DNA of 64,000 nucleotides from Magnetococcales bacterium (GCA_015231925.1 JADGAQ010000002.1:4791-68790); one strand, 5' to 3'; shown: positions 7,831-37,265, counted from the stretch's first letter. Program-made: numbers and translations. Notes: generated by a model from the letters alone, not told the origin.

Positions 7831-8547
7831 ATGACTAACAGGAAGATATGGACTCTTTTATCCTTGTTGACCGTGCTATTCGGTGTATCCGGATGTGCAA
7901 CGCTTCTTCCTTTACCGGATGAAATGGCCAGCGTCTTGTTGGACGAGAAGGTCGAAAAGGTATTGGATAGATTTTGCCCCATCTCCGCCGACCCGAAGAA
8001 CGTAACCTTCGATGACCGGGTTATTCGTTCCTACGCCGTCTTGGCAGCTGTCGTTGGACACGGATATCGGACGCTTGAGAATTACGGCTTCTCGAAAGAG
8101 GACTCAAAGTTCTTTGCTGAAAAGATCGTGAGCAAAATAAAACCATCGCTTGAGCTGATCAAAAAGATGGATGATGAAAAATCAGCTTACTTTTTTCTTC
8201 CACACGGCGATGTCGTTGTGGAATTAAGCAAAGTGGCCTTGGCATCGATCGAACCCTCCATAAAGATCGGCAAGAAACCGGCCGATCTATTGCTCTCTTC
8301 AAATCGGGAGCAAGCGGCAGGATTGCTCATTCAAATCCTGGAGGACAAGCTCTATTTCGACGCCTTCCACAATAGTTGCTACTGCTATGCAAACACTGGA
8401 AAAAAAGCCGAGACAATACCCATGACCTGCCCCACAACAGCGACGGACATGAAGGCCAAATTCAAAGAGCGCATCACGGATCGCTGCGAGAAGCTAAAAG
8501 GTTTCTTTGATAATAATAGTACTAATTATGAGTGCGAGGTAAAGTAA
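7831..8547 (+). CDS. Cys-rich lipoprotein of unknown function
   Basis: Signal peptide with lipobox (LLTVLFGVSGC). No family recognised. Visibly lower GC than neighbouring genes. Ends 31 bp upstream of the lipase gene. Confidence 0.6.
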   Translation: MTNRKIWTLLSLLTVLFGVSGCATLLPLPDEMASVLLDEKVEKVLDRFCPISADPKNVTFDDRVIRSYAVLAAVVGHGYRTLENYGFSKEDSKFFAEKIVSKIKPSLELIKKMDDEKSAYFFLPHGDVVVELSKVALASIEPSIKIGKKPADLLLSSNREQAAGLLIQILEDKLYFDAFHNSCYCYANTGKKAETIPMTCPTTATDMKAKFKERITDRCEKLKGFFDNNSTNYECEVK

Positions 8548-8578
8548 ATCATCCATACTCTAAATACAGGGGGAGTAT

Positions 8579-11223: not shown

Positions 11224-11452
11224 GTAACTGTTCAGGATCCTGCACAGCGGGACATGACCGTATCAACAGCGAAAGAATAAGTCCCAGGGGTACCCCCTGG
11301 ACCCCGGGAGGTCATAACGTCAACGGCAAAAGGAAGAGTCCCAGGGCGCTGTCCTGGATCCGTCGGGGGGGATAATCCCCCCCGAACCCCCGTATATCTG
11401 AATAGTTACTTCCTTTTTGATATTTAAAGGATAACATATTGAAAGTTAAAGG
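11224..11452. repeat. Family-D MITE-like element fused to a partial TIR60 unit
   Basis: GTAACTGTTCAGG ... CCCCGTATATCTGAATAGTTAC followed by ttcctttttgatatttaaaggataacatattgaaagttaaagg. Confidence 0.7.
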
Positions 11453-11473
11453 ATTCTAATCTCTATCTCCGGA

Positions 11474-18440: not shown

Positions 18441-18789
18441 GGTTTCGGGAAGATAACCGTTCCGCTTGACGAAGGTTTGGGGGGATTATCCCCCTTGACA
18501 TAGGGTGTTGTTTGCCGGTGTTTATGATATATATTATTTTTGATTCCGCATCAATCGCCTTGTTGCGGGATAACTCTTTCGGTCAAAGATTATGCCATCA
18601 TTTTGAGTCACATTATTTATCAGCAGGATCAAGAGCCGCCTGTTCTTTCATCCGGCGCCGTATTTCAATTGAAATGGCTGTTTTGATGGTATACAACGCC
18701 TTATCAGGAGCCTGCGGCGCGGGTTCCGGCGGCTGAACAGAATAATTATCCAATCGATTTCGTTCCTCCCACTATTGGGAAGGAGTGCC

Positions 18790-21312
18790 ATGAATATTCA
18801 GAATGCCAACCTCTTGGAAGCGTCGAGCCGCGTGGCTTTCGCGGCTCTGGTGCATGATCTGGGAAAGTTCGCCGAACGCGCCGAGATGGCCGTTGCCAAG
18901 GCGGAAATAGATCAGAGGAAAAAAGATTATTGTCCAAAAGGTTCTTCAAAATACACCCACGCCCACGCCGCCTATTCCGCCCTGGCCCTACAGGCTCTCA
19001 AGGGGATGCTGCCCGACTTCCAATCGGGAGACATGTTCCCTTTCGACACGTCGAACGAAACCCTGATCGCCGCTGCCGCCGGGCATCACGAGCCCAAAAC
19101 GTCCCTGCAACGCATCGTGGCCATCGCCGACCGCCTGGCCTCGGGATTCGAGCGCAGCAACTTCACAGAATACGAGCGACTCCAGGAAGGAGATGCCCCC
19201 AACGGTGTGGGACTGCATCGCGCCCGGCAATGGCCGATGCTGGAGACCATTTATCCGGATCAGCAGAATTTGAAGGAACCCAAACAACGTTTCCCCCTGA
19301 AGGCCCTGGCTCCGGAAACCCTTTTCCCCGGAGGGTGGAATCCGGGAACTCCAGACGAGGCCAAGGCCGAGTACCGGGAGCTGTGGGACGCTTTCATCTC
19401 CAAGTTGGAAACCCTCTCCCATCGCAACCGTCTACCCTTGTGGCTCGACCATTTCGACAGCCTGTTCCTCACCTTCACCCACGCCATCCCCTCGGCCACG
19501 GTGAGTCGTGAGAATGGACGTTTCACCAAAATCCCCACCGATGTCTCGCTTTACGACCACTCCAAGGCGGTGGCGGCTTTGGCGGTGGCGCTGTGGCGTT
19601 ATCACCTGGAAAACGGCACGGTGGAGGAGGTCTTTTCCAAGTCCAAATGGAACCACTGGGACGAACACGACGTAGCGGAATTTCTGCTGATTCAGGGTGA
19701 CTTCTCCGGCATTCAGGCCTTCATTTTCGACAGCGCGGAATCCACCTCCAAGGCGGCCAAACGGTTGCGGGGTCGCTCCTTCATGGTTTCGCTGCTGACG
19801 GAGCTGGCGGCGTTGAAGGTGCTGGAGACCCTGGAGCTGCCGTCCACCAGCCAGATCATCAACGCGGCGGGCCGGTTTCTCATCGTGGCTCCCAATCGGG
19901 AGACGGTGCAGCAAAAACTGGAAGGGGTGCGTCGCGAGCTGGACGAGTGGTTTTTGCAGCAAACCTTCGGGCAAAGCGGCATCGCTCTGGTGACCACGGA
20001 GGCCAGCCGGCAGGATTTCCATAAAGAGAGGTTCGCCGCCCTGATGGATCGGTTGTTTGTCGATGCCCAGCGCCGTAAACGGCAGCGGTTTGGCCTGTGC
20101 GGCGAGACACCTCCTGCACCGATCTTCGAAGCGGTGGACTATCCCAACGGGCCCTGCGTCGTGGATGGACACAAACCCGGAGAGATCCTGGCGGAGGGCA
20201 AATACCGCTGTCGGCTGTGCAACGATCAGATCACGGCAGGTGATCAACTGGTCAAGCAGAATCTCCTGTTGATCGGATACACCGTTCCGCAAGAATTACC
20301 CGCCCTGGAAGCCAGCTATTTCGGCTATCGGGTTGCTTTCGCCAGAGAAGAGAAAGGTGGGGATTGGCTGCGGGTGTGGGATTTCGCCCTGCCCGAAGCG
20401 GATGGGAAGACTCCCTTGTGGAACGGCTACGCCCGGCGGGCCATCAATGCCCATGTGCCCCGGAATGAGTCGGGCGAACTCCTCGATTTCGAAACGATTG
20501 CCAAAACGGCCATTGTGCCGGATGAATCGGGCAATCCTCGCGGTGTGGCCGCTCTGGGCATTCTCAAAGGCGATGTGGACAATCTGGGAGCGATTTTCCG
20601 CAAGGGGCTGGAGCATCCCACCTTTGCCCGCATGGCGGGTTTGAGCCGACAGGTCAATGCCTTTTTCGCCATCTGGCTGCCCTGGTGGTGTTCCAAAGAG
20701 TTTCCCAATACCTACACGGTCTTCGCCGGGGGGGATGACTTCTTTCTCATCGGCCCCTGGCTTGAACAGATTCATCTGGCGCGGGAGATTTGCAAAGCCT
20801 TGAGGCTATACGGCGGGAAGAATCCTAAGGTGCATCTTTCCGCCGGTCTGGTGATGACCAAACCGGACCTGCCGGTTCCCGCTTTGGACAGCCTTGCGGA
20901 GGAGGCGTTACAACACGCCAAGAACCATGCTGACAAAACCAAGAACGCCATCACCTGCTGGAACCGCACCGTCTCCTGGCAGGTTTTCGAGGAGATGATG
21001 CAGGCGGAAGAAGAGCTGACAACCCTGACGGCTCTGCTGGCCGAAGAGAAGGTGGAGATGAGTTCCGGCTATCTCTACTCCCTGTTGGATCTTTGCGACA
21101 GGGCGGAAAGCCCCCGCCCGGAAGATCAGCTCTGGCGCTCCTGGTTCGTCTACCGCACCTGGCGATTCGTGGTGGATCGCCTGCCGGAAGAAAAGCGGGA
21201 GCCATATTACAAGGATGAGTTTGTCGCCAAGATCGGCAAGCGGCTCCTCTGCCGCAGCGGCGATTACAAAATAGCCCTGTTCACCCATCTTTATCAGCGA
21301 CGGGAGGCGTGA
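18790..21312 (+). CDS. cas10: Type III CRISPR Cas10/Csm1
   Basis: HD domain (ALVHDLGKF, AAGHHE, IADRLASG), first palm domain (LLIQGDFSGIQAFIF), Zn-binding Cys cluster (CVVDGH...CRLC) and cyclase motif FAGGDDFFLIGPW. ATG 18790 follows GGAAGGAG; the track start at 18775 is TTG. Confidence 0.92.
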   Translation: MNIQNANLLEASSRVAFAALVHDLGKFAERAEMAVAKAEIDQRKKDYCPKGSSKYTHAHAAYSALALQALKGMLPDFQSGDMFPFDTSNETLIAAAAGHHEPKTSLQRIVAIADRLASGFERSNFTEYERLQEGDAPNGVGLHRARQWPMLETIYPDQQNLKEPKQRFPLKALAPETLFPGGWNPGTPDEAKAEYRELWDAFISKLETLSHRNRLPLWLDHFDSLFLTFTHAIPSATVSRENGRFTKIPTDVSLYDHSKAVAALAVALWRYHLENGTVEEVFSKSKWNHWDEHDVAEFLLIQGDFSGIQAFIFDSAESTSKAAKRLRGRSFMVSLLTELAALKVLETLELPSTSQIINAAGRFLIVAPNRETVQQKLEGVRRELDEWFLQQTFGQSGIALVTTEASRQDFHKERFAALMDRLFVDAQRRKRQRFGLCGETPPAPIFEAVDYPNGPCVVDGHKPGEILAEGKYRCRLCNDQITAGDQLVKQNLLLIGYTVPQELPALEASYFGYRVAFAREEKGGDWLRVWDFALPEADGKTPLWNGYARRAINAHVPRNESGELLDFETIAKTAIVPDESGNPRGVAALGILKGDVDNLGAIFRKGLEHPTFARMAGLSRQVNAFFAIWLPWWCSKEFPNTYTVFAGGDDFFLIGPWLEQIHLAREICKALRLYGGKNPKVHLSAGLVMTKPDLPVPALDSLAEEALQHAKNHADKTKNAITCWNRTVSWQVFEEMMQAEEELTTLTALLAEEKVEMSSGYLYSLLDLCDRAESPRPEDQLWRSWFVYRTWRFVVDRLPEEKREPYYKDEFVAKIGKRLLCRSGDYKIALFTHLYQRREA

Positions 21313-21693
21313 GTGAATACTACCGGAATTATTCTGAACAATATTCAGAAAGATTTATTTGATGGGGTCGCCGAGAGGGTAGCCAAGGATCTGGCTGCAA
21401 ATCGGCAATCCAATAAACCTACTCAATTGCGTCGTTTTTATGACGAGATTTGTCAATGGACGGAAAAAGTCGATGGCAAGGACGAGACTTACAAAACATT
21501 AAGCCCATTCATTCATATGCTGAACGCCAAGACAGCCTATGCCTTTGGTCGAAACAAACTGGTTGATGCCAACTTTGTAGAATTGATCCGTTACTGCCTG
21601 AACCAGGTCAATAATGCCGAAACCCTCGGCAATTTCAAACTCTTCATGGAAGCGGTGATGGGATTTTATAAATACGAGCGGCCCGGCAACTGA
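21313..21693 (+). CDS. csm2: Type III-A small subunit Csm2
   Basis: 126 aa, helical. Has the Csm2-like TQLRRFYDEI and NAKTAYAFGR motifs. The GTG start abuts the cas10 stop. Confidence 0.8.
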   Translation: MNTTGIILNNIQKDLFDGVAERVAKDLAANRQSNKPTQLRRFYDEICQWTEKVDGKDETYKTLSPFIHMLNAKTAYAFGRNKLVDANFVELIRYCLNQVNNAETLGNFKLFMEAVMGFYKYERPGN

Positions 21694-21703
21694 GGAACAG
21701 ACC

Positions 21704-22420
21704 ATGAAACTGACCCACATCGACGAAATCTCCGGGCAACTCCTTCTGTGCAGCGGGTTGCATATCGGCAGCGGCAACACCGAAATGCACATCGGCGGTT
21801 CGGACAATCCCGTGATCAAACATCCCCACACCAACCGACCCTACATTCCGGGCAGCAGCCTGAAAGGCAAAATCCGCAGCCTGCTGGAATGGCGTGTTGG
21901 GGGCAAGGCGATACTCGACGGAAAACCGATGAGTTATGGCAAACTTCAACAGCTTCCGGACGATGACCGCCCGGATGCCCTGACCATTCTCAAACTGTTC
22001 GGCAATTCCGCCGGTGAGAAGTTAAAAGATGAAGTGTACCAGGAAATCGGCCTTCCCCGCTTGATCTTTCGGGACTGCATGCTTTCGGATGAATGGGTAA
22101 CATCCGTTAATAACAAAAAGCTTTCTCTGACTGAAACCAAGATGGAAAACACCATCAACCGGGTTAGCGGTGTGGCGGAACACCCCCGCAGCATGGAGCG
22201 GGTTCCGGCGGGAGCGATATTCAATTTTTGCCTGGTGATCCGGCGATTCGGCGAGGAGGAGGAATTGCACGATCTCCTTTTCAAGGGTTTGAAACTGCTG
22301 GAGATGGACAGCCTGGGTGGTTCGGGTTCCCGCGGTTACGGCCGGGTTGAATTCAAACTGCATGCCCCGTGGCAGGAGAAACTCGACAAGACCAACCCCT
22401 GGAGTGACAACGGCAAATGA
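21704..22420 (+). CDS. csm3: RAMP protein Csm3 (Cas7 family)
   Basis: LHIGSG...PYIPGSSLKGKIRSLLEW and C-terminal GGSGSRGYGRV glycine loop. Confidence 0.9.
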   Translation: MKLTHIDEISGQLLLCSGLHIGSGNTEMHIGGSDNPVIKHPHTNRPYIPGSSLKGKIRSLLEWRVGGKAILDGKPMSYGKLQQLPDDDRPDALTILKLFGNSAGEKLKDEVYQEIGLPRLIFRDCMLSDEWVTSVNNKKLSLTETKMENTINRVSGVAEHPRSMERVPAGAIFNFCLVIRRFGEEEELHDLLFKGLKLLEMDSLGGSGSRGYGRVEFKLHAPWQEKLDKTNPWSDNGK

Positions 22421-23322
22421 ACACCCTGCTGATCACCCTGGAGCCCTTGACGGCTTTTGCCACGCCGTTGCACGGGGACACCCTCTTCGGGCAACTCTGC
22501 TGGGCGTTGCGCAATCGTCAGGGCGAAGCCTGGCTGGTGGAGCGGCTGCGGGGATACACCGCCAACGACCCCTTTCTGGTGGTTGGGGATGCGTTTCCCG
22601 AAGGGCACTTTCCCCGTCCCCGAAAACCCTCGAAGGGTTTTCAGAGCAAGGAAAATCGTCAGCAGGTCTGGTTGCCCCGCCGGGAGTGGGGATTGGACTG
22701 TGTGACTGAGGAGGCGATCTGGGGCAAGGACAAAACCCGCATCGAGCGGCCCCAGCCCCACAACAGCATCCATCGCCTGAGCGGAACCACGGGCGAGGGA
22801 GAGCAAGGGTTTGCGCCGTTCGTCACCCGGCAAATCTGGTTTCCCGAAGGAGCCCGCCTGGAGGTGTGGCTGCTTCACGATGCGGATCGCTTGCCGGAGG
22901 AGACGCTGCACACCGCGTTGAGCGATATCGGACAGTTGGGTTTTGGCAAGGAGGCTTCGAGGGGACTCGGCAAATACCGGGTGACTGCCATGCAACCCAC
23001 CCCCCTGCCCCGACAGGAAGGCTGCAACGCCTGGCTGACCCTGGGAAGTTGCGCCCCCCAAGGGTGCGGTTTCGACGCCGCCAACAGTTTTTATGAGCTT
23101 TTCACCCGTTTCGGTCGTCACGGGGATTGGCCGGCGCTGAGCGGACAACCCTTCAAGAAACCGATCCTGATGGCCGGTGCCGGCGCGGTGCTGACCCCCG
23201 CCGTGTGGCGGGATGTCCGCTTCGTCGGGCAGGGTTTGGGTGGCGAGGGCAAGCTGTCGAAGGTCATTGCGGATACCGTGCATCAAGGCTACTGCCCGGT
23301 AGTGGGCATTCGGGTGGATTGA
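22417..23322 (+). CDS. csm4: RAMP protein Csm4 (Cas5 family)
   Basis: The N-terminus LEPLTAFATPLHGDTLFGQLCWAL is typical of Csm4. Has the G-rich motif IGQLGFGKEASRGLGKY. ATGA overlap with csm3. Confidence 0.85.
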   Translation: MNTLLITLEPLTAFATPLHGDTLFGQLCWALRNRQGEAWLVERLRGYTANDPFLVVGDAFPEGHFPRPRKPSKGFQSKENRQQVWLPRREWGLDCVTEEAIWGKDKTRIERPQPHNSIHRLSGTTGEGEQGFAPFVTRQIWFPEGARLEVWLLHDADRLPEETLHTALSDIGQLGFGKEASRGLGKYRVTAMQPTPLPRQEGCNAWLTLGSCAPQGCGFDAANSFYELFTRFGRHGDWPALSGQPFKKPILMAGAGAVLTPAVWRDVRFVGQGLGGEGKLSKVIADTVHQGYCPVVGIRVD

Positions 23323-23335
23323 CGGGAGGGAAAAG

Positions 23336-24508
23336 ATGGCTGAACGATTTTTACAATCCCATCGTCTGGTGATTTCCACCCTTTCACCAGTCCACATCGG
23401 TTGCGGGGAGGATTACGAACCCACCAACTACGTTATTGATGACAACAATAATACGTTGCACTATTTCGAACCAAGCGACCTTTTGACGCTGCCGCAATGG
23501 CCGGAACGGCGTCAAGAATTGCTCAACCTGGTTACCCGACAGGGAGGAAGCCAGGTGGTTCGCGGCATACAGACCTTTTTCCACAAACTGCGCAAGGAAA
23601 TCGCCCCCCTTTCCAGACATCAGGTAAGCGTTTCCCAAGGAATTATGGACTCTTACAAGGAACGTATCGGGCAAGTGGCGCAGCGGGAGTTCGGCAACAA
23701 GGAGACCCTCAACTCTCTGGGAATCCAACGCGGGTATTACCACCCCCACTCCGGTCAACCGATTCTTCCCGGCAGCAGTTTGAAAGGAGCCGTGCGCACG
23801 GCCTTGCTGAATCACGCCCATGGGGGCCAGAAGTTGAAACAGCCTGCTCTGGCGGAGCAACGCACCAATTGGAAAAAGCTCTCCCCGCTTGATGTGACGT
23901 TACGGAATTTTCATGGAGATTTTCACGCCGATCCCCTGCGCCTGATAAAGATTACCGACAGCACCCCATTCCCCACCGAGAAGATCAAACCGCTCATCTG
24001 CTTTGCCGTCAATCGGAGCAAACGGCCCGACGATACGAAAGAGCGGCCCTTTCAAATGAGGGAATGCCTTCCCGGAATGGCCAAAAAGGCTGTAGAGGCC
24101 GAGTTGATTTTGCATGATGTGGGTGCGCTGCGCTCCGAGAAGTTACCGGCCGTGCGTCCGACCATGGAAGAGATTGTGAAACGCTGCAATGACTATTATC
24201 TGCATCGGTTGCAGGAGAGTTTGAAACTGCCGGGTGTAGATAAAGAATGGATCAACAAGATTCAAAGGTCTTTAGATAGAAATATCTGGAGGCTTCAAGA
24301 GGGAGACTCTTTTTTGCTGCGTCTGGGCATGGGCAGCGGGTCCGAAAGCATTACGCTCGATGGAGCAAGACATATTCATCAGCCACAACATAGACAGTGG
24401 GTGGAAAAGCCCTCGACGGTCTGGCTGTTTTCCGAGATGGGCAAGGATGCAAGGGAGGGGCTGTTACCTTTTGGCTGGGTGCTGGTGGCCTGGGATAAAC
24501 GGCCATGA
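23336..24508 (+). CDS. csm5: RAMP protein Csm5 (Cas7 family)
   Basis: STLSPVHIGCGE and ILPGSSLKGAVRTALL motifs. It sits in the csm5 position of the operon. Confidence 0.85.
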   Translation: MAERFLQSHRLVISTLSPVHIGCGEDYEPTNYVIDDNNNTLHYFEPSDLLTLPQWPERRQELLNLVTRQGGSQVVRGIQTFFHKLRKEIAPLSRHQVSVSQGIMDSYKERIGQVAQREFGNKETLNSLGIQRGYYHPHSGQPILPGSSLKGAVRTALLNHAHGGQKLKQPALAEQRTNWKKLSPLDVTLRNFHGDFHADPLRLIKITDSTPFPTEKIKPLICFAVNRSKRPDDTKERPFQMRECLPGMAKKAVEAELILHDVGALRSEKLPAVRPTMEEIVKRCNDYYLHRLQESLKLPGVDKEWINKIQRSLDRNIWRLQEGDSFLLRLGMGSGSESITLDGARHIHQPQHRQWVEKPSTVWLFSEMGKDAREGLLPFGWVLVAWDKRP

Positions 24509-25446
24509 CGATCTATTCCCTTCCCCTGGCGCGATACCGTCTGGAGTGGCGGGTGGAGACACCGTTGCGCTTGCCGGAGTATGCCGGATCAGCGTTGCGG
24601 GGGGTGTTTGGCGCGGCTCTGCGGGGGCTGGCCTGTATCACTCGGGAAAGGGAGTGTCCGGGTTGCGGCCTTTTGCGCACCTGCCCCTATTCCCTGATCT
24701 TCGAAACCCCTGCCCCACTGGTGGCCGAAGGGGAAAAAGGCTTTGCGGTGACACCCAATCCCTACATTATCGAGCCGCCGCCCTGGGGGGTGCGGGAGTA
24801 TGGTGTCGGGGAGGCGTTGGTGTTTCATCTGGTGCTGGTGGGACGGGCGTTGGGCCATTTGCCCCTGCTGATATTGGCCTGGCAACGCGCCCTTGGCCGG
24901 GGTGTCGGGGCGGGAGATGGCAAAGCCGAGTTGCAACAGGTGGTGCTGGAAAGGTCGAACGGCGAAGAGGTGGTTTTTCGGCGGGAGGAAGGGCTGCTGC
25001 GCGACCACGACACGCAGGTTGTCGTGCCATCCTGGCCGGGACAGGAGGCTCTCACTCTGCATCTGCTCACCCCGGTCCGCATTCAGCGCGACGGTTCGCC
25101 TCTCGGTCCGGGACGCCTCACGCCACGGGATCTGCTGGTGGGGTTGATGCGTCGTATCGGTCAGATGGCTCATCTACATGCGGATGTCGACCCGGAGATC
25201 GATTACTCGGAGCTGTCCCGGCAGGCGGGTTTGATTCCGTGTCATGGCAACCTCGCCTGGCGGGACTGGACACGCCGTTCCGCCCGACAGCAGCAAACCA
25301 TGGCCTTGGGCGGTGTCGTCGGTCGATGGACTTTGACGGGTGATCTGCAACCTTTCTGGCCGTTTCTTTATCTGGGGCAGTGGTTGCATGTGGGCAAAAA
25401 TGCCACCTTCGGGTTGGGTGGGTACCAACTTGAAACGCAGGTTTGA
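24505..25446 (+). CDS. cas6: Cas6-family CRISPR endoribonuclease
   Basis: 313 aa. C-terminal G-rich loop HVGKNATFGLGGYQL and N-terminal CPGC...C cluster. ATGA overlap with csm5. It is the last gene before the leader. Confidence 0.75.
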   Translation: MTIYSLPLARYRLEWRVETPLRLPEYAGSALRGVFGAALRGLACITRERECPGCGLLRTCPYSLIFETPAPLVAEGEKGFAVTPNPYIIEPPPWGVREYGVGEALVFHLVLVGRALGHLPLLILAWQRALGRGVGAGDGKAELQQVVLERSNGEEVVFRREEGLLRDHDTQVVVPSWPGQEALTLHLLTPVRIQRDGSPLGPGRLTPRDLLVGLMRRIGQMAHLHADVDPEIDYSELSRQAGLIPCHGNLAWRDWTRRSARQQQTMALGGVVGRWTLTGDLQPFWPFLYLGQWLHVGKNATFGLGGYQLETQV

Positions 25447-25471: not shown

Positions 25472-25507
25472 TGTTAATCATCGCTCCGTTTGATAGGGGA
25501 TTGTAAC
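25472..25507 (+). repeat. Orphan degenerate CRISPR repeat
   Basis: tgTTAA-TCATCGCtCCGtTTGATAGGGGATTGtAAC vs the consensus CCTTAAGTCATCGCCCCGCTTGATAGGGGATTGAAAC. It shares the CGCTCCG variant with the degenerate terminal repeat of the array. Confidence 0.75.
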
Positions 25508-25679
25508 GGTTCTGACGGGGGAGCTTCAAGCCAGAATGGCGGAAGAGGTTAAAGAGCGCATCCGTGGGACGGACGATGCGGTGCAGATTTATCCGCTTTG
25601 TGCCAATTGTGCGGCCAAGGTGCAACGTTTGGGCAACGCCTGTGAGGCTCCTGGTGAGGAGGTGGTATTCGTGGTTTAA
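25497..25679 (+). pseudogene. cas2: cas2 3' remnant
   Basis: The open frame after the stop at 25494-25496 translates to ..VLTGELQARMAEEVKERIRGTDDAVQIYPLCANCAAKVQRLG.., which matches the Cas2 C-terminal pattern (D-x-hydrophobic-x-IY-x-L-C...C...G). The N-terminal half is absent and its place is taken by the orphan repeat. Not in the ORF track because it is under 60 aa from the ATG at 25536. Confidence 0.55.
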
Positions 25680-25721
25680 TGGCAGGCAGGGGATTTTTCA
25701 GAAAAATTATTTTTTTATCTT

Positions 25722-25779
25722 TTGACCTTCAATATGTTTCCTTTAAATAGTAAAAAAAGAAAATGTTCTGTCCGTGGCC
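25722..25779 (+). repeat. TIR60 unit (forward orientation) in the CRISPR leader region
   Basis: TTGACCTTCAATATGTTTCCTTTAAATAGTAAAAAAAGAAAATGTTCTGTCC, matching the family consensus TTGACTTTCAATATGTTATCTTTTAAGTATCAAAAAAAGGAAATGTTCTATCCTTTGAC. Confidence 0.8.
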
Positions 25780-25786
25780 TTTTCCT

Positions 25787-25815
25787 TTGATTATCCTTTT
25801 CAAATAATATATAAT
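25787..25815 (+). promoter_or_regulatory. Candidate sigma70 promoter for the CRISPR array
   Basis: TTGATT (25787-25792), a 17-bp spacer, then a perfect TATAAT (25810-25815). It lies about 215 bp upstream of the first repeat and faces the array. Confidence 0.55.
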
Positions 25816-25841
25816 ATCTAGCATCGATGTATCGAGATGTA

Positions 25842-25883
25842 GTCGTAACCCCGAAAACCCGATTTTCGACCGGGGGTTACGAC
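25842..25883 (+). other. Long bulged hairpin in the leader
   Basis: GTCGTAACCCCGAAAA-cccga-TTTTCG(accgg)GGGGTTACGAC: an 11-bp outer stem plus a 5-6-bp inner stem. Confidence 0.6.
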
Positions 25884-26029
25884 AAGACCCAACCCGTTGG
25901 AAAATAAGAATGTTTACAATCCCGCACTTTCTTTTCACCAGAAAAACCGGGGGCACGGTATGCCAGATGAAACGGTTACGAAAATGTGGTCAATTTCCGA
26001 TGGAAAATCAGGTAAATGTAGCATGGTCT

Positions 26030-27533
26030 CCTTAAGTCATCGCCCCGCTTGATAGGGGATTGAAACAGTTCGATATCGGAGCGGGTCTCGAAGTCCAAGT
26101 GTAAAACGGCCTTAAGTCATCGCCCCGCTTGATAGGGGATTGAAACTGTTTGAAAGCTTCCAGAAGGTCGCTCAACGCTCCCCTTAAGTCATCGCCCCGC
26201 TTGATAGGGGATTGAAACGTTGTCCATCAATAAAGACCAGTGCGCGACGAATTTCCCCTTAAGTCATCGCCCCGCTTGATAGGGGATTGAAACAGTTGAT
26301 TGCCTCGTCCATCCGGGTGATGGCTGCATCTCCTTAAGTCATCGCCCCGCTTGATAGGGGATTGAAACACATCGAACATACGTGTCTTCATAGGTGTAAC
26401 AAGCGCATCCCTTAAGTCATCGCCCCGCTTGATAGGGGATTGAAGCCGTCAAGAGGGGTGTCGCGTCACTCACCGTGGCTCGGATCTCCTTAAGTCATCA
26501 CCCCGCTTGATAGGGGATTGAAACACCAGATGCCCCGGCAGGATCCCGGACCGATAGACGCACCTTTAAGTCATCGCCCCGCTCGATAGGGGATTGAAAA
26601 CACAAACTTTACAGCGTTCGCTACGTTATCACAAAACTCTTTAAGTCATCGCCCCGCTCGATAGGGGATTGAAACACGTCAGCGTCTTGGATGATTTCGA
26701 GTTCCTTCACTTCCTGATCTTTAAGTCATCGCCCCGCTCGATAGGGGATTGAAACGGCAACCCAACATCATCCACCCCGACATTCTCCACCCGATGCTTT
26801 AAGTCATCGCCCCGCTCGATAGGGGATTGAAACAGAAAGAAAAAGCGAGCGCCGCTGGTTGTTTCGACATAGTGCCTTTAAGTCATCGCCCCGCTCGATA
26901 GGGGATTGAAACGCCTCACGGTCAATCCCATCGACCGCCCGAAGGCACCAGACTTTAAGTCATCGCCCCGCTCGATAGGGGATTGAAACCTACGCTCCGC
27001 CGGATTGGCTGTATCCATGGCCATTGCCTTTAAGTCATCGCCCCGCTCGATAGGGGATTGAAACCACTTCCGGCCCCCTCGGCGAAGGTGTAATCCTTCA
27101 CCAGTTCCTTAAGTCATCGCCCCGCTCGATAGGGGATTGAAACTCAACCAGTGCAATGATTGACTCGTCAACATACTCTACAATCCTTAAGTCATCGCCC
27201 CGCTCGATAGGGGATTGAAACGATGCGCCCTGCGCGCCGGTCAAAACGCCGTTTTCGGCTTCCTTAAGTCATCGCCCCGCTCGATAGGGGATTGAAACTT
27301 TTTTCGTTTGGCATGCGCCTGAAATATTCTTCCGCAGTTGCCTTAAGTCATCGCCCCGCTCGATAGGGGATTGAAACTCTGCCGGGCAGGCGGCCGGATC
27401 CCACAGTGTGCCGATACACCTTAAGTCATCGCCCCGCTTGATAGGGGATTGAAACTCAGGGTCGTAGCCGAAATCTGAACAAAAATCCTCGAAAGACCTT
27501 AAGTCATCGCTCCGCTTGATAGGGGATAAACCG
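26030..27533 (+). CRISPR. CRISPR array with 20 repeats and 19 spacers
   Basis: 37-bp repeat C[C/T]TTAAGTCATCGCCCCGCT[T/C]GATAGGGGATTGAAAC; spacers are 35-43 bp. First repeat is 26030-26066. The last repeat, 27497-27533, is degenerate (..CGCTCCGCTTGATAGGGGATAAACCG). The 3' ATTGAAAC matches the usual 8-nt crRNA 5' handle. The degenerate repeat distal to the cas genes places the leader at 25680-26029. Confidence 0.97.
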
Positions 27534-27552: not shown

Positions 27553-27581
27553 TTGACTTATAGTACTAGGTACGATATCAT
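27553..27581 (+). promoter_or_regulatory. Candidate hicAB promoter with an embedded palindrome
   Basis: TTGACT (27553-27558), a 17-bp spacer containing the 8-bp palindrome TAGTACTA, then TATCAT (27576-27581). The hicA ATG is at 27589. Confidence 0.45.
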
Positions 27582-27588
27582 CACTGCC

Positions 27589-27816
27589 ATGAACACCTCC
27601 GCCAAACTCCTTGATGCCATGCAGACCAACCCCACCGACTGGAGGATCACCCAATTGCAGACGGTGGCCCAGCAGTACGGGATCACCTGGCGGCACAAGG
27701 GGACAAGCCATTGTTATTTCATGCGTGAAGACGGAGCCGTCCTTTCTGTGCCAGCCCAGCGCCCCATCAAACCGATCTACATCAAAAAATTCATTCTGTT
27801 CGTGAAAGGGGGCTGA
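27589..27816 (+). CDS. hicA: HicA-family mRNA interferase toxin
   Basis: 75 aa. ...WRHKGTSHCYF...LSVPAQRPIKPIYIKKFILFV matches the HicA pattern (GSH..F, VP..kpIKP.Y.K.f). ATG 27589 is preferred over the TTG at 27553. Confidence 0.7.
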   Translation: MNTSAKLLDAMQTNPTDWRITQLQTVAQQYGITWRHKGTSHCYFMREDGAVLSVPAQRPIKPIYIKKFILFVKGG

Positions 27817-27818
27817 CC

Positions 27819-28193
27819 GTGTATAAACCCGAAGATTACCCCTTCGAAATCAGGCCACTGGATCCGGAAGAAGGCGGCGGCTACCTGATCTCCTTCCCGG
27901 ACTTCTGCGAATGCCTCTCGGACGGCGAAACACCGGCGGAAGCGATTGAAAACGGCTTGGATGCCCTGCGAGGCCTGATCACACTCTTTGTGGAAGAGGG
28001 ACGCCCCCTACCAGCACCCCTGTCCGGCGGCTTTTCCGGAAAATTCGTGGCCAGAGTTCCCAAAACCCTGCATGCCCATCTCTCCGCCAGAGCCAAAGCG
28101 GAAGGGGTCAGTCTGAATACGCTGGTGGTGGCCCTGATCGCCGAAGGACTGGGAAGACGGGAGGCGGGAGAGATCCGAAGCCGTTCTGCATGA
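27819..28193 (+). CDS. hicB: HicB-family antitoxin with C-terminal RHH DNA-binding domain
   Basis: HicB fold N-terminus (FEIRPLDPEEGGGYLISFPDFCECLSDGETPAEAIENG). C-terminus FSGKFVARVPKTLHAHLSARAKAEGVSLNTLVVALIAEGL. The GTG start is 2 nt after the hicA stop. Confidence 0.8.
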   Translation: MYKPEDYPFEIRPLDPEEGGGYLISFPDFCECLSDGETPAEAIENGLDALRGLITLFVEEGRPLPAPLSGGFSGKFVARVPKTLHAHLSARAKAEGVSLNTLVVALIAEGLGRREAGEIRSRSA

Positions 28194-30842: not shown

Positions 30843-33461
30843 TTAATAAATACATTTATTGTTCAAGAACGCCGCATACTGCCGGTCCTCTTCTAAAATA
30901 TGATGAACCAACCAATCCGTAAAGAAGCTGCGGAAATCCTCCTTGGCCACTCCCCCACCCTTCAAGACCGCCCAATAGCCCACCACCCTCTCCACCAACC
31001 GTCGATGATGCTCCCGATGCACCGCCAACCCCGGATATCCATAAAGCGCCATCAACGCCTCCTCTTCCGCGAAATGATACCGGGTATAATCCATCAACGC
31101 CTGAAAGGCCCGCTCCAAAGGCGGCATCTCCCCCGCCCGCTGCATCTCGATAATGCCGTTGGCAATCTCCACCAAGGTCTTGTGCTGCGTGTCCATGCGC
31201 AAGACATGCACACTGAACTCCTCCCGCCAACGCAACACCTCCCGATCATTGCCGGCATGCACAATCTGCAAGGTGCGCCGCGTATACGACTCGAACAACT
31301 TCCAGCGAATGACGGGAATGTCCTTCAGCAACTCCCCATCCACCTGATAAACCTCCGTCTCCTCCTCCACCTCCAGCCGGAACAGACACGGCAGACTGAA
31401 TAACGCCCCCTCCTCCCCGAAATAGGCCCCGCGTTCCAGCATATCCAGAAACTCACTGCCCACCAAACGCCGCAACCGCCCGCTGCGCACCAGATTGAGA
31501 CTGGTCAGATCCTGACAGGTGATGCGCTCCCCCGGACGAAACCGCTTGACCCGCGCCCGATCCAATATCTGACTGAGTACCGGATAGGAAACCCCCTCCC
31601 CAAACAGCGTCGTGGTCTGGAAAAAGGACCACTTCTCCCATAACGCCTCGATCTTGGGCAACAAACCATTCAGCCGAACCAACTCCAGATAAAGCCTGCC
31701 GGGAATCCGCAACACCTGCACATAACTGGCCGCCCGATAGGTGGCCGGCGAGATTTGATGATGCAGACACGACTTCTCCCCGATCAACGCCCCCGCCGAC
31801 AGCCGACTCTGCACATTGTCCCGGGAGATGATGCGCTCCACCACCCCACCCAGAATCAACAACACATTGCCCGCCCGAGTGCCCTCCCGCAAAATGATGC
31901 TGCCCGGATTGAACTCCTCCAGATCGTTGTTGAGCAGAATGCGCACCTGATGCACCGGCATGTCCGGAAAATAGATGCGCAAATGCTCGAAAGCCCCACG
32001 GCGCGTGAAATCGGACTTGCCCACGATGAGAATGTCGGAGGTGCCATACGGCGCCGAAGAGCCGATCTCCTTCTCCTCGGAAGTCAACGGCCGCGCCACA
32101 TGCGCCAACAAAATCTTGCCCGAGGCATCCTGCCGGAAATCCTTGGCCTGCCCGTGAATCAACCCCCCGCCAATGTCGATCTTCTTCAAATCGGCGGGCG
32201 TCAGATAGGCCTCCTCCACCCGATTGTAAAACTCCCGACTCACCCCCGGAACAGAAGTGTCCGCCGTGATCATGCCCCGCAACAAATCCAACGGAACGAT
32301 ATCGGCAAAATGGGCATAGGTCTTGTAACCATTGGCCCACAGGGTGCGAAACAGAAAGATGGAGGTCTCCACCGGATGAGGCGAGAAGATAGGCTTGACC
32401 TCCACCCCTTCGATGTCATTCCACACATCGAAGGTCAAATCACAAATGTCGAAGAAATCCCGAAAACGCTCCTCCTCCATGGAAAGGAGCGCGGCAATCT
32501 TCTTCTCCGTCGAGGCCCGCACCAGCGGCGTGGCGAAATAACGGATGCGATGACCCGCCTGCATGAGAGTGGTGATGCCGGCAAAGTGGTCATCATGGGC
32601 ATGGGTGTGGAAAATGCCCTCCACTTCATCAAGCCCCACCCCCAACGCCGTGAGATTCTGCGCCAGATTGGGACCCGCATCCACCAGGAAGATGCGGCCT
32701 TGAAAAACCAGAATGCTTGACATGGCGGGACGATTGACATCCCAACCATCCCCCTCCCCGGAGTGAATAATAGAGAAGTAGTCCCGCACCAGACGCTGAT
32801 GCACCAGCGGATAGGGGGTTTCGTACTGCTCCCGCGGGGAGAGATTGAGATCCACCGCCACCTCCTCCTCCTGAAAGCGGAAGACGTAGTGGTTGGTGGC
32901 GGTGCGCCGGATGAAAAGACCGTTGCGGATTTCCACCTCCGTCTGCTCCACCAGACAGGTGTCGAGCAGCTCCTGGGAGGGACGAATGCGCCCGAAGGCA
33001 AAACGCAGCTTGAGACGCATTTGCTCCTGCGCCGCCTCCCGGGAGAGCCCGGCCTGCATCAGCTCCTCCAGGGAAACCAGCCCGTAATTGCCGCGATAGA
33101 TGTATTGCAACTGGGCGTTGACCTGCTGCGGCAACCCGATGAGCAGCGGCTTGGCCCCGGTATTGTTGGGATGCCCCGGCAGAATCATGCCCTGTTTGTA
33201 GAGCATCTGCAGCACGGGAAACTCACTCAAATTGGCGAAATCCCCGTTCTGCAACATGGTGTCGGAGAGCAGAATGGCGTTGGGCCCGCTTTCGCACGGC
33301 ACCCCCTGCTTCTCCTTCTGCAGGATGAGACCCCGCTTGATCAGATGCTTGACGCTGTCGGCGGGACATCCGCACAAAATGCGCAGATCGGCCAACGGGG
33401 CCTCCACCCAGTAGATGCCTTGGGATACCGCAATTTTATGGAGTTTCTCCATGCCATCCAC
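30843..33461 (-). CDS. MBL-fold hydrolase (class-II-PDE-like HxHxDH) + two cNMP-binding domains + hemerythrin domain
   Basis: FHTHAHDDHFAGI; two cNMP-binding-like domains (GALIGEKSCL...RAASYVQVLRI; GAYFGEEGALF); C-terminal hemerythrin (HKTLVEI...HFAEEEALM...HREHHRRL...WLVHHILEEDRQY). The N-terminal ~230 aa are unassigned. Start is GTG 33461 or ATG 33452. Confidence 0.75.
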   Translation of the reverse strand: MDGMEKLHKIAVSQGIYWVEAPLADLRILCGCPADSVKHLIKRGLILQKEKQGVPCESGPNAILLSDTMLQNGDFANLSEFPVLQMLYKQGMILPGHPNNTGAKPLLIGLPQQVNAQLQYIYRGNYGLVSLEELMQAGLSREAAQEQMRLKLRFAFGRIRPSQELLDTCLVEQTEVEIRNGLFIRRTATNHYVFRFQEEEVAVDLNLSPREQYETPYPLVHQRLVRDYFSIIHSGEGDGWDVNRPAMSSILVFQGRIFLVDAGPNLAQNLTALGVGLDEVEGIFHTHAHDDHFAGITTLMQAGHRIRYFATPLVRASTEKKIAALLSMEEERFRDFFDICDLTFDVWNDIEGVEVKPIFSPHPVETSIFLFRTLWANGYKTYAHFADIVPLDLLRGMITADTSVPGVSREFYNRVEEAYLTPADLKKIDIGGGLIHGQAKDFRQDASGKILLAHVARPLTSEEKEIGSSAPYGTSDILIVGKSDFTRRGAFEHLRIYFPDMPVHQVRILLNNDLEEFNPGSIILREGTRAGNVLLILGGVVERIISRDNVQSRLSAGALIGEKSCLHHQISPATYRAASYVQVLRIPGRLYLELVRLNGLLPKIEALWEKWSFFQTTTLFGEGVSYPVLSQILDRARVKRFRPGERITCQDLTSLNLVRSGRLRRLVGSEFLDMLERGAYFGEEGALFSLPCLFRLEVEEETEVYQVDGELLKDIPVIRWKLFESYTRRTLQIVHAGNDREVLRWREEFSVHVLRMDTQHKTLVEIANGIIEMQRAGEMPPLERAFQALMDYTRYHFAEEEALMALYGYPGLAVHREHHRRLVERVVGYWAVLKGGGVAKEDFRSFFTDWLVHHILEEDRQYAAFLNNKCIY

Positions 33462-33687
33462 CCGCGTCGTTCTTTGGAAGTGGAACTTTATCTATTTTCC
33501 AGTCGATATACTGTGCCGCAATTGCCGTCGGGATACAATACCGGTTTCGGTGCCGGGCAATCGCTTGTAACGACGGGGGACCGGCGGACCCCCGTCGTTA
33601 CCAATCCCACCCGTTTTGCCGCGCAACAGAGCCCAGGTTGCCTATTGTTGCGGAAGAGGGTAACCTTACCCCAGGAGGTGGGCTGCC

Positions 33688-36079: not shown

Positions 36080-36092
36080 ATGCCACAATCTT

Positions 36093-36543
36093 TTGACTTT
36101 CAATATGTTATCTTTTAAATATCAAAAAAAGGAAATGTTCTGTCCTTTGACTTTTCGTGACCATTCACTCCTCCTATTTCTCCCCAGCCCCCGAGGGGCC
36201 ATCTGGTCGGGGGGCTGGACGGAAACGGATGGGGCAAAGGACAGAACATTTCCTTTTTTGGATACGTATACCGTGTCTACTTTGGAATACATAATTTTTC
36301 TGTATCTGTTCAAGTATACGGGGGTTTGGAGGGGATTACCCCCCCCCAACGGGTCCAGGGCAGCGCCCTGGGACTTTTCCTTTCGCCGTTGACTTCGTCA
36401 TATCGCGCTGCGCGGGATCCTGAATAGTTATAGAAAAATTACGCATTCCAAAATGGACACGGTATAAATGAATGAAAAATAAAAAGTCAAAGGATAGAAC
36501 ATTTCCTTTTATTGATACTTAAAAGATAACATATTGAAAGTCA
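36093..36543. mobile_element. TIR60-bounded composite carrying a family-D element
   Basis: Forward TIR60 36093-36152, internal partial reverse copy ~36233-36270, second inverted pair ATACCGTGTC.../...GACACGGTAT, reversed family-D core ~36302-36431, and reverse TIR60 36483-36543. Confidence 0.8.
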
Positions 36544-36679
36544 AATGATTAAAATATATTTCCGCTTGGCTGCAGGAGCATTGCCACACCTCCCCCAACA
36601 GGTGAGGCGTTGCCCCAAACACCCTCAAGGAGGATAATGCTCCCCCCGGCCCACGAATGCTCGAAAACGATCGGATCCC

Positions 36680-37258
36680 ATGGAAAAACCGCACTGGACT
36701 TGGCGCTACGCACGCATTCAATGGTGGAAACGCATCATGCGCCCCATGGTTCGTTCCCCCCACCCCCCGGAATATCAAGCCCGGGCCTCCTTCTGGGGCC
36801 TGGTGGTCAACTTCACCCCCTCCATCGGCTTCCAACTGCCCATGGTGGCCGCCATCTGGGCCATCTCCCGCACCTTGCGCAAAGAGTGGGATTTCAACTT
36901 CCCCCTGGCCTTCGCCTGGACCTGGATCACCAACCCCGCCACCGCCGCCCCCCTCTACTACCTGTTTCTGGTCACCGGACGCTTCATGCTGGGCGAGTGG
37001 GACAACCCCAACATGGACTTCGAGGCCTTTCGCAATCTCTTCGGGGAAGTCTTTCGGGAAGGTGGCGCGGAAACAAGCTGGTGGCAGGTGATGCTGGACC
37101 AGATGACCCAGCTTTGGCATCACTTCGGCTTTCCCATGGTGGTGGGTTCCCTGCCCTGGGCCCTGTTCAGCGGCTGGGTCGGCTATGTCTGGACGTTGCG
37201 CTTTCTCAAAGCCTACCACGCCCGCCGGGCAAGGATGTCGAATCAGGCTTCCCTGTAA
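36680..37258 (+). CDS. DUF2062-family membrane protein
   Basis: 192 aa. FWGLVVNFTPSIGFQLPMVAAIWAISR...AFAWTWITNPATAAPLYYL matches the DUF2062 pattern. Overlapping ORFs in other frames are discounted. Confidence 0.65.
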   Translation: MEKPHWTWRYARIQWWKRIMRPMVRSPHPPEYQARASFWGLVVNFTPSIGFQLPMVAAIWAISRTLRKEWDFNFPLAFAWTWITNPATAAPLYYLFLVTGRFMLGEWDNPNMDFEAFRNLFGEVFREGGAETSWWQVMLDQMTQLWHHFGFPMVVGSLPWALFSGWVGYVWTLRFLKAYHARRARMSNQASL

Positions 37259-37265
37259 TTTATCT

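What the first reader, a model, noticed from the sequence alone, without database searches (positions are those of the whole stretch)
18790..25446. Type III-A-like Csm operon with an apparently catalytically intact Cas10 but no recognisable signal-responsive effector in cis
Cas10 keeps the HD motif set and the GGDD cyclase motif, so nucleotide second-messenger synthesis is expected. However, csm6/csx1 is missing from its usual place after csm5, and I cannot recognise a CARF or SAVED domain in any other ORF of the 64-kb window. The genes are translationally coupled by three ATGA or abutting junctions, which argues for a functional complex rather than decay. The reader of the signal is therefore unlinked, unrecognised or absent.
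Basis: partly seen in the sequence, partly recalled or inferred. Interest (0 to 1): 0.55.

Follow-up and report, generated by a model that had tools for sequence, protein, structure and literature searches.

The report
Stripped-down type III-A CRISPR locus
This is an intact-looking type III-A CRISPR interference operon in a Magnetococcales genome that lost its signal-reading genes and its spacer-acquisition genes through deletion, which is a known situation rather than a new signalling pathway.

Summary
Positions 18790-25446 encode cas10/csm1, csm2, csm3, csm4, csm5 and cas6, and a 20-repeat CRISPR array follows at 26030-27531. Cas10 keeps every clade-invariant HD and cyclase residue, including GGDD. 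No CARF, SAVED, NucC or similar protein was found in any sizeable ORF of the 64 kb.

The absence is secondary. All seven distinct close sister loci share one architecture: NE0113-family CARF gene, cas10, csm2-5, cas6, then csx16 plus a Csx1-like gene (or Csm6), then cas1, cas2, leader and array. In the window, a solitary degenerate repeat (25472-25507) sits 25 nt after cas6. It abuts the last 56 codons of cas2 (25509-25679), and the leader and array follow. That is a deletion scar at the spot where csm6/csx1 and cas1 normally lie. The upstream CARF gene and the Csm5 C-terminal extension are also missing.

Among 46 related loci with full flanks, 42 carry one of these CARF-type families. Effector-less, cyclase-positive type III loci are already documented (Hoikkala 2024). 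The locus most likely acts through Csm3 RNase and the Cas10 HD nuclease. Any reader of cyclic oligoadenylate must be encoded elsewhere or is absent. The rest of the genome could not be examined. Interest is low.

The parts
18441..18789 (+). AT-rich intergenic region upstream of cas10. In sister loci an NE0113-family CARF gene sits directly upstream of cas10.
   Evidence: Sequence. tblastn with the sister NE0113 proteins finds no remnant here. Sister architecture.
18790..21312 (+). cas10/csm1, 840 aa, with an intact HD nuclease motif set and GGDD cyclase motifs
   Evidence: TIGR02578, 625 bits. Pfam Cas10 palm2, Csm1_B and HD. Best solved structure is Serratia Cas10 9zs2_A, E 5e-126. All clade-invariant residues are kept.
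21313..21693 (+). csm2, 126 aa. Its GTG start abuts the cas10 stop.
   Evidence: PF03750 and TIGR01870. Junction with a GGGAGG ribosome-binding site.
21704..22420 (+). csm3, 238 aa, the Cas7-type RNase subunit. Catalytic D34 is present.
   Evidence: TIGR02582, 211 bits. Alignment to Serratia dCsm3 9zs2_E, E 3e-60, places D34 opposite the D34A position.
22417..23322 (+). csm4, 301 aa. ATGA overlap with csm3.
   Evidence: TIGR01903, 82.8 bits. Junction.
23336..24508 (+). csm5, 390 aa. RAMP core only. It lacks the roughly 150-aa C-terminal extension found in all sister loci and in Serratia Csm5.
   Evidence: TIGR01899. Alignment A1. Serratia Csm5 is 559 aa. The csm5ext HMM gives no hit in the window.
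24505..25446 (+). cas6, 313 aa. ATGA overlap with csm5.
   Evidence: PF10040. PADLOC Cas6, E 4e-97. Junction.
25472..25507 (+). Solitary degenerate CRISPR repeat, 29 of 36 positions identical to the array repeat. It lies 25 nt after the cas6 stop and abuts the cas2 remnant.
   Evidence: It is the only isolated repeat copy among the window and the sister loci. Sister cas2 genes contain no repeat-like sequence (16-19 of 36).
25509..25679 (+). 3' remnant of cas2: the last 56 codons plus the stop. There is no start codon, and the N-terminal 40 or so codons are missing.
   Evidence: tblastn, 48% identity to L001 Cas2 residues 41-96, E 8e-11. Family HMM E 8e-17. DNA alignment.
25680..26029 (+). CRISPR leader. 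It contains one copy of a 65-nt genome-specific repeated element (about 25717-25785) and a promoter-like site TTGATT-17-TATAAT (25787-25815).
26030..27531 (+). CRISPR array: 20 repeats of 37 nt, C[C/T]TTAAGTCATCGCCCCGCT[T/C]GATAGGGGATTGAAAC, and 19 unique spacers. It has the same orientation as the cas genes. The last repeat is degenerate.
   Evidence: No spacer matches elsewhere in the window.

Best explanation
This is a reduced derivative of a standard type III-A locus of a proteobacterial Cas10 clade whose closest solved member is the Serratia Csm complex.

Ancestral architecture. It is still present in all sister loci examined: an NE0113-family CARF gene, cas10, csm2-5, cas6, then csx16 plus a Csx1-like CARF-HEPN gene (or a Csm6), then cas1, cas2, leader and array.

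What was lost in this Magnetococcales genome.
- A deletion removed everything between cas6 and the middle of cas2. It left a solitary degenerate repeat fused to the last 56 codons of cas2.
- The upstream CARF gene is missing.
- The Csm5 C-terminal extension is missing.

What remains. A complete interference core (Cas10 with HD and GGDD, Csm2-5, Cas6) and a frozen 19-spacer array with its own leader promoter.

Shown: the gene content, the intact catalytic motifs, the deletion scar, and the absence of any recognisable reader in 64 kb.

Inferred mechanism.
1. Cas6 processes the array transcript.
2. The Csm complex binds complementary invader RNA.
3. Csm3 cuts that RNA, and the Cas10 HD domain cuts nearby single-stranded DNA.
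4. The palm domains still make cyclic oligoadenylate.
5. That signal is either read by an effector encoded elsewhere in the genome or goes unread.

New spacers can only come from adaptation genes acting in trans.
For: Operon identity and motifs.

Deletion scar.
- The cas2 3' remnant lies at 25509-25679 (tblastn E 8e-11, HMM E 8e-17).
- A solitary repeat lies directly in front of it. It is not part of cas2 coding sequence.
- The leader and array then follow in the same order as in the sister loci.

Sister architecture. It is identical in seven distinct loci: L001, L002, L004, L005, L006, L007 and L008. The flanking genes are CARF-type by Pfam.

Wider clade.
- An NE0113 gene is present in 55 of 69 loci with at least 1.5 kb upstream of cas10.
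- At least one of the four CARF-type families is present in 42 of 46 loci with full flanks.
- Another Magnetococcales locus, L010, is also minimal: array plus cas10-cas6 with nothing else. Stripping therefore recurs.

Short Csm5.

Literature (PMC11229360).
- 34% of Cas10 proteins have both HD and cyclase.
- 133 of 1113 loci are effector-less with a cyclase.
- A locus that lacks effectors is 2.57 times more likely to lie in a genome with several type III loci.

Multi-locus genomes in this order. Accession proximity (MBF0151303, MBF0152733, MBF0154073) suggests one Magnetococcales MAG carries three cas10 genes of this clade.

From my own knowledge: in Staphylococcus epidermidis type III-A, Csm6 is dispensable for well-expressed targets.
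Against: - The rest of the genome could not be examined, so a reader encoded in trans and no reader at all cannot be told apart.
- No second cas10 of this clade has an accession near MBF0307993 among the hits I checked.
- The cas2 remnant still has an open frame. This suggests the deletion is fairly recent, so intact csm genes are only weak evidence for ongoing selection.
- The mechanism that placed a repeat at the deletion junction is unexplained.
- The contig comes from a metagenome-assembled genome, so an assembly error at the junction cannot be formally excluded.
- No spacer target was found.
Confidence: 0.72

Rival explanations
1. The locus is a decaying relic that no longer gives immunity. 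The deletion that removed cas1, half of cas2 and the CARF genes, together with the truncated Csm5, marks a system on its way out. The six ORFs are intact only because too little time has passed.
For: Deletion scar and loss of both accessory modules. Csm5 lacks the clade-conserved C-terminal extension. The cas2 remnant is still an open frame, which suggests a recent event. No spacer matched viral contigs in three exact scans.
Against: - Six ORFs spanning 6.6 kb have no frameshift or premature stop.
- All clade-invariant catalytic residues are kept.
- Ribosome-binding sites and coupled junctions are intact.
- The leader keeps a promoter-like site.
- Csm5 of canonical type III-A systems is 340-400 aa and has no extension, so the short form is probably functional.
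- A second minimal locus, L010, exists in the same order.
Confidence: 0.18
2. An unrecognised reader that is neither CARF nor SAVED is encoded in the window. Candidates are the membrane-embedded patatin/cPLA2-like lipase at 8579-11194 with its lipoprotein neighbour, or the protein with MBL, two cNMP-binding domains and hemerythrin at 30843-33461.
For: - The 871-aa ORF has lipase-type motifs (GGGIRS, SGGG, DGGHFENLG) and lies in a low-GC island. From my own knowledge, patatin-like lipases are nucleotide-activated effectors in CBASS.
- The 872-aa ORF has cyclic-nucleotide-binding domains and a weak Apyc1-like MBL match.
Against: - Neither protein, nor any other window gene outside the operon, recurs next to cas10 in the 88 related loci.
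- Both are separated from the operon by housekeeping genes: uvrA, a sirohaem synthase gene, a DsbD-family gene and a TPR methyltransferase on one side, glnS on the other.
- PADLOC gives nothing for the lipase and only weak cNMP-domain matches for the 872-aa protein.
- The N-terminal domain of the 872-aa protein is conserved across many phyla with no CRISPR link and shows no CARF or SAVED fold.
- That protein pairs divergently with a gene encoding cNMP-binding, PAS, class III cyclase and hemerythrin domains. This explains it as ordinary cAMP/cGMP signalling.
Confidence: 0.04

Closest known systems
Serratia (ATCC 39006 / S. marcescens) type III-A Csm system with NucC (PDB 9zs2/9zs4; bioRxiv 10.64898/2026.03.30.715313)
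   Same: It is the closest solved relative. Cas10 matches at E 5e-126 over residues 155-838, Csm3 at E 3e-60 and Csm5 at E 3e-22. The subunit set is the same: cas6, cas10, csm2-5. The GGDD cyclase is active in Serratia and makes mainly cA3.
   Different: Serratia Cas10 has a degenerate HD (HN instead of HD), and immunity there depends on the cA3-activated DNase NucC. The window keeps HD and has no NucC hit (PADLOC). Serratia Csm5 is 559 aa. The window's is 390 aa.
Sister type III-A loci of Magnetococcales and related MAGs (for example GCA_015228815.1 JADGCV010000024.1, GCA_015232675.1 JADFZG010000011.1, GCA_963575685.1 CAUYUB010000088.1)
   Same: Cas10 is 47-56% identical, with the same HD and GGDD motifs. 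The order cas10-csm2-csm3-csm4-csm5-cas6 is the same. The repeat family (...ATCGCCCCGC...GGGGATTGxxAC) and the arrangement cas2-leader-array are the same.
   Different: Every sister locus also carries an NE0113-family CARF gene before cas10, csx16 plus a Csx1-like protein of about 395 aa (or a Csm6 with a HEPN domain) after cas6, full cas1 and cas2, and a Csm5 of 507-552 aa. The window lacks all of these.
Effector-less, cyclase-positive type III loci described by Hoikkala, Graham and White 2024 (PMC11229360)
   Same: The Cas10 cyclase motif is present and no known ancillary effector lies in the locus. The proposed explanation there is signalling to effectors of another locus in the genome.
   Different: Their set of 133 loci was restricted to Cas10 proteins without HD. 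This Cas10 has HD, so it has a built-in effector and is less puzzling. A physical deletion scar is visible in this locus.
Canonical Staphylococcus epidermidis / Streptococcus thermophilus type III-A (cas10-csm2-6, cas6)
   Same: Cas10 has HD and GGDD. Csm5 is of canonical length (340-400 aa in solved complexes). Cas6 is encoded in the locus.
   Different: The canonical loci encode Csm6 (CARF-HEPN) and sit next to cas1 and cas2. Cas10 identity to them is low (E 1e-24 to 1e-37).

Membership tests
Type III-A (Csm) CRISPR-Cas interference module | Cas10/Csm1 large subunit | tested here: met
   TIGR02578 equivalog, 625 bits against a cut-off of 170. PF22335 and PF18211.
Type III-A (Csm) CRISPR-Cas interference module | Csm2 small subunit, which distinguishes III-A from III-B | tested here: met
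   PF03750, 55.8 bits. TIGR01870, 60.5 bits against 30.6.
Type III-A (Csm) CRISPR-Cas interference module | Csm3, Csm4 and Csm5 RAMP subunits | tested here: met
   TIGR02582 at 211 bits against 90, TIGR01903 at 82.8 against 55, and TIGR01899 at 59.7 against 38.3.
Type III-A (Csm) CRISPR-Cas interference module | Cas6 and an adjacent CRISPR array in the same orientation | tested here: met
   Cas6 from PADLOC at E 4e-97. The array has 20 repeats ending in ATTGAAAC.
Type III-A (Csm) CRISPR-Cas interference module | Catalytic residues: Cas10 HD, Cas10 GGDD with the palm aspartates, and the Csm3 aspartate | tested here: met
   All invariant columns of the 25-sequence alignment are kept. Csm3 D34 is kept.
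Type III-A (Csm) CRISPR-Cas interference module | Target-RNA-dependent synthesis of cyclic oligoadenylate | not testable with these tools
   Inferred only from intact palm motifs and from the Serratia homologue, which makes cA3.
cOA signalling pathway encoded in cis (CARF/SAVED/NucC effector, ring nuclease) | A CARF, SAVED, NucC, Cam or CorA-type effector or a ring nuclease within or next to the locus | tested here: not met
   No hit in Pfam, NCBIfam or PADLOC for the window ORFs. No hit with HMMs built from the sister NE0113, csx16, Csx1-like and Csm6 proteins. The N-terminal domain of the 872-aa protein has no CARF fold.
Complete CRISPR-Cas locus with an adaptation module | Intact cas1 and cas2 | tested here: not met
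   There is no cas1. Only the last 56 codons of cas2 remain, at 25509-25679.

The most novel reading that the evidence does not exclude
There are two readings that the evidence does not exclude.

1. The cyclic oligoadenylate made by this complex is read by a non-CARF protein that nobody has described. It could be encoded in the window (for example the membrane patatin-like lipase at 8579-11194) or elsewhere in the genome.

2. The solitary repeat fused to the cas2 fragment is not a passive scar. It could be a CRISPR-derived, crRNA-like regulatory RNA, processed by Cas6 from read-through of the cas operon.
Probability: 0.05. Interest if true: 0.6.

Novelty: new member of a known kind. Interest (0 to 1): 0.2.

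Why it matters
It matters little beyond annotation. The locus is one more example of a type III-A system that keeps its interference core while shedding its adaptation and signalling modules. That fits the published view that such loci rely on the HD nuclease or on components shared in trans.

The modest added value is the visible deletion scar: a solo repeat fused to a cas2 fragment. It shows directly how an effector-less locus can arise from a fully equipped one.

The result also cautions against reading "no CARF in cis" as evidence for a new signal reader without first comparing sister loci.

Tried and rejected
Attempts to reach the rest of the genome.
- A genome-contig scan with Cas10 alone found no relative, so this MAG is not in that collection.
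- Exact look-up of the window's Cas10 and Csm3 found no contig on record. The 14 kb of the contig beyond the window and the other contigs of the MAG could therefore not be read.
- Two metagenome scans with the repeat core gave 0 matches.

Attempts to find spacer targets.
- Three viral-contig scans with leader-proximal spacers gave 0 matches.
- No spacer matches elsewhere in the window.

Other searches that found nothing.
- Rfam at gathering threshold gave no hit in the window.
- PADLOC, NCBIfam and PDB sequence searches of the unassigned ORFs found nothing relevant. These ORFs are 1823-4336, 7831-8547, 8579-11194, 46088-46978 and 36509-37392. The only signal was a chance-level VipD (patatin) match for the 871-aa ORF.

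Ideas rejected.
- The solo repeat is not simply cas2 coding sequence. Sister cas2 genes match the repeat at only 16-19 of 36 positions.
- The N-terminal domain of the 872-aa protein is not a CARF.

Not done: I did not spend the last large protein search looking for an orphan CARF gene from the same MAG. Cas10 accessions already showed no second locus of this clade, and only 10 accessions could have been checked.
Full report
**What is there.**
The window comes from a Magnetococcales metagenome-assembled genome. Its Cas10 is identical to NCBI protein MBF0307993.1, from a 78-kb contig.

The finding's coordinates hold six co-directional genes that pass curated family cut-offs:
- cas10/csm1, 18790-21312. 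It starts at an ATG behind a GGAAGGAG ribosome-binding site.
- csm2, 21313-21693.
- csm3, 21704-22420.
- csm4, 22417-23322.
- csm5, 23336-24508.
- cas6, 24505-25446.

The cas10 stop TGA abuts the csm2 start GTG, and csm3/csm4 and csm5/cas6 each overlap as ATGA.

Downstream lies a CRISPR array at 26030-27531. It has 20 repeats of 37 nt ending in ATTGAAAC and 19 unique spacers, in the same orientation as the genes.

**Catalytic integrity.**
I aligned 25 clade members (A2). The window's Cas10 keeps every invariant column:
- HD domain: H22, D23, H57, H59, H99, H100, D114.
- Palm 1: the GDFSGIQ motif.
- Palm 2: GDVDNLG and AGGDD (G647-D650).

All 40 homologues I inspected also carry HD and GGDD. 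Csm3 keeps D34, opposite the D34A position of the Serratia dCsm3 structure.

**No reader in cis.**
I ran Pfam on essentially every ORF of 150 aa or more in the 64 kb, and NCBIfam and PADLOC on the operon's neighbours and on the ORFs Pfam left unassigned. None gave a CARF, SAVED, NucC, Cam, CorA or ring-nuclease hit.

The surroundings are housekeeping and signalling genes:
- Upstream: cheD, cheR, uvrA, a sirohaem synthase gene, a DsbD-family gene and a TPR methyltransferase.
- Downstream: hicB, glnS, and many GGDEF/EAL, histidine kinase and hemerythrin proteins.

HMMs built from the accessory proteins of sister loci, and then iterated on 80 further loci, also found nothing in the window.

I looked up seven distinct sister loci whose Cas10 is 47-56% identical (L001, L002, L004-L008). 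All share one architecture, in this order:
1. An NE0113-family CARF gene abutting cas10.
2. cas10 and csm2, sometimes followed by an MNT/HepT pair.
3. csm3, csm4, and a csm5 of 507-552 aa.
4. cas6.
5. Either csx16 plus a protein of about 395 aa with weak Csx1-CARF and HEPN signals, or a Csm6 with the Cas02710 HEPN domain.
6. cas1 and cas2.
7. A leader of 200-300 nt and an array of the same repeat family.

tblastn of these accessory proteins against the window gave a single significant hit. Residues 41-96 of Cas2 match 25509-25676 at 48% identity (E 8e-11; family HMM E 8e-17). A stop codon follows at 25677-25679.

Directly in front of this remnant lies a solitary degenerate copy of the array repeat, at 25472-25507, 25 nt after the cas6 stop. 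It matches the array repeat at 29 of 36 positions. Sister cas2 genes contain nothing repeat-like at that position (16-19 of 36). No other locus has an isolated repeat.

After the remnant come an AT-rich leader with a promoter-like site (TTGATT-17-TATAAT, 25787-25815) and then the array.

The locus therefore keeps both ends of the ancestral arrangement. It has lost about 3 kb between cas6 and codon 40 of cas2. That is exactly where csm6/csx1 and cas1 lie in the relatives.

Two more losses are visible:
- The upstream NE0113 gene is absent, with no detectable remnant.
- Csm5 ends right after its RAMP core. It lacks the roughly 150-aa C-terminal extension conserved in all sisters and in Serratia Csm5, which is 559 aa.

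**How typical is this.**
A profile-guided scan returned 80 further loci of the clade from 185,579 species genomes.
- NE0113 is present in 55 of 69 loci with at least 1.5 kb upstream of cas10.
- At least one of the four CARF-type families is present in 42 of 46 loci with full flanks.
- The four without any are L010, L041, L061 and L063.

L010 is another Magnetococcales locus. It consists only of arrays plus cas10-cas6, followed by a GGDEF gene. Minimal versions therefore recur at roughly one locus in ten.

No window gene outside the operon recurs next to cas10 in the 88 loci. There is thus no guilt-by-association candidate for a hidden reader.

**Candidates examined and set aside.**
- This domain is 50-65% identical to proteins in many unrelated phyla. 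It is always fused to an MBL hydrolase, and those proteins are annotated as cyclic-nucleotide-binding or hemerythrin proteins.
- An AlphaFold model built from 38 sequences is confident (pLDDT 86.5, pTM 0.81).
- Its best Foldseek matches are MBL-fold enzymes: Apyc1 7u2r (E 1e-4, TM 0.38), PNGM-1 and RNase Z. No CARF or SAVED structure appears in the list.
- With its divergent neighbour, which combines cNMP-binding, PAS, class III cyclase and hemerythrin domains, it looks like ordinary cAMP/cGMP signalling.

The 871-aa ORF at 8579-11194 is a membrane-embedded patatin/cPLA2-like lipase by motif. It lies 8 kb from the operon beyond uvrA, and it has no PADLOC hit and no link to related loci.

**Comparison with what is known.**
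The closest solved complex is the Serratia type III-A system (Cas10 E 5e-126). It makes mainly cA3 and depends on NucC, and its HD domain is degenerate. This Cas10 differs: HD is intact and NucC is absent.

Hoikkala et al. 2024 (PMC11229360) report:
- 34% of Cas10 proteins have both HD and cyclase.
- 133 of 1113 loci have a cyclase, lack HD and have no known effector.
- A locus that lacks effectors is 2.57 times more likely to lie in a genome with several type III loci.

An HD-positive locus without an effector is less puzzling still, because HD is itself an effector.

Multi-locus genomes probably exist in this order. Three Cas10 accessions lie within 2,800 numbers of each other: MBF0151303, MBF0152733 and MBF0154073. 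For the window's own MAG, none of the clade Cas10 proteins I checked has a nearby accession. Other subtypes could not be checked.

**Most likely mechanism.**
Cas6 processes the array transcript. The Csm complex binds complementary RNA. Csm3 cleaves that RNA, and the HD domain cleaves nearby single-stranded DNA. Cyclic oligoadenylate is still made but has no dedicated partner in the locus. These steps are inferred from intact motifs and from homologues, not shown.

Whether a reader is encoded in trans cannot be decided.

The main rival is that the locus is a recent relic on its way to loss. The open frame of the cas2 remnant suggests the deletion is not old, so intact genes are weak evidence for selection.

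**Verdict.**
The argument against decay is wrong, because the locus demonstrably lost its accessory and adaptation modules. This is an ordinary, reduced member of a known kind.

The one unexplained detail is why a CRISPR repeat sits exactly at the deletion junction, in front of the cas2 fragment.

Noticed in passing
window 25472-25679: A solitary degenerate CRISPR repeat abuts the 3' fragment of cas2, so the cas2 piece sits where a spacer would normally be. How a repeat came to lie at the deletion junction is unexplained. Possibilities include recombination with a cas2-derived spacer, an ectopic integration event, or a remnant of a former second array. Read-through from cas6 could yield a crRNA-like RNA.
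   Followed up: partly
window 23336-24508; sisters such as L001 15594-17234: The window's Csm5 (390 aa) lacks a C-terminal extension of about 150 aa. The extension has a charged coiled-coil followed by a conserved PQPIxGxLWQ...EELPxKLKG region. It is present in all seven sister loci, and Serratia Csm5 is similarly long (559 aa). Its function is unknown.
   Followed up: partly
window 25717-25785, 36088-36155, about 36480-36549(-), 37262-37330, about 37430-37501(-), about 11385-11454(-): An intergenic element of about 65 nt (ATCTTTTGACTTTCAATATGTTATCCTTTAAATATC...GGAAATGTTCTGTCC) occurs six times, against 0.01 expected by chance. It contains a sigma-70-like TTGACT-17-TAAATA. One copy lies in the CRISPR leader, and four flank a DUF2062 gene at 36680-37258. 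It is absent from all 88 related loci.
   Followed up: partly
window 7831-11194: A low-GC island (50-53%) holds a lipoprotein (238 aa) and an 871-aa protein. The larger protein has patatin/cPLA2-type motifs (GGGIRS, SGGG, DGGHFENLG) interrupted by a long multi-pass membrane region. It has no hit in Pfam, NCBIfam or PADLOC.
   Followed up: partly
window 30843-35778: A divergent gene pair. One protein combines a conserved N-terminal domain, an MBL hydrolase, two cNMP-binding domains and hemerythrin. The other combines cNMP-binding, PAS, class III nucleotide cyclase and hemerythrin. This looks like an oxygen- or iron-sensing cyclic-nucleotide module. The N-terminal domain is conserved at 50-65% identity across many phyla and has only a weak MBL-like fold match.
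   Followed up: partly
L001 13290-13839; L005 12888-13560: Two sister loci carry an MNT/HepT (nucleotidyltransferase/HEPN) toxin-antitoxin pair inserted between csm2 and csm3, inside the csm operon.
   Followed up: no
L010 7112-8719: In another minimal Magnetococcales locus, the CRISPR array lies upstream of cas10. It consists of three blocks of five or six repeats, and successive blocks are separated by a 295-nt start-to-start gap. The blocks begin with the same sequence (CTGAAATGGTCC...), which suggests a tandem duplication of an array segment.
   Followed up: no
window 26030-27531: The array has three repeat variants arranged in blocks. Repeats 1-7 and 19-20 have CCTTAAG...GCTTGATAGG. Repeats 8-14 have CTTTAAG...GCTCGATAGG. 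Repeats 15-18 have CCTTAAG...GCTCGATAGG. This hints at past recombination between arrays.
   Followed up: no
proteins P0020, P0005, P0012 (NCBI MBF0151303, MBF0152733, MBF0154073): Three Cas10 proteins of this clade have accession numbers within about 2,800 of each other. This suggests that one Magnetococcales MAG carries three type III-A loci.
   Followed up: partly
window 27553-28193: A hicB antitoxin gene (27819-28193) lies directly after the array trailer. An unassigned 87-aa ORF (27553-27816), with a promoter-like site at 27553-27581, sits where hicA would be expected. It has no Pfam hit.
   Followed up: no
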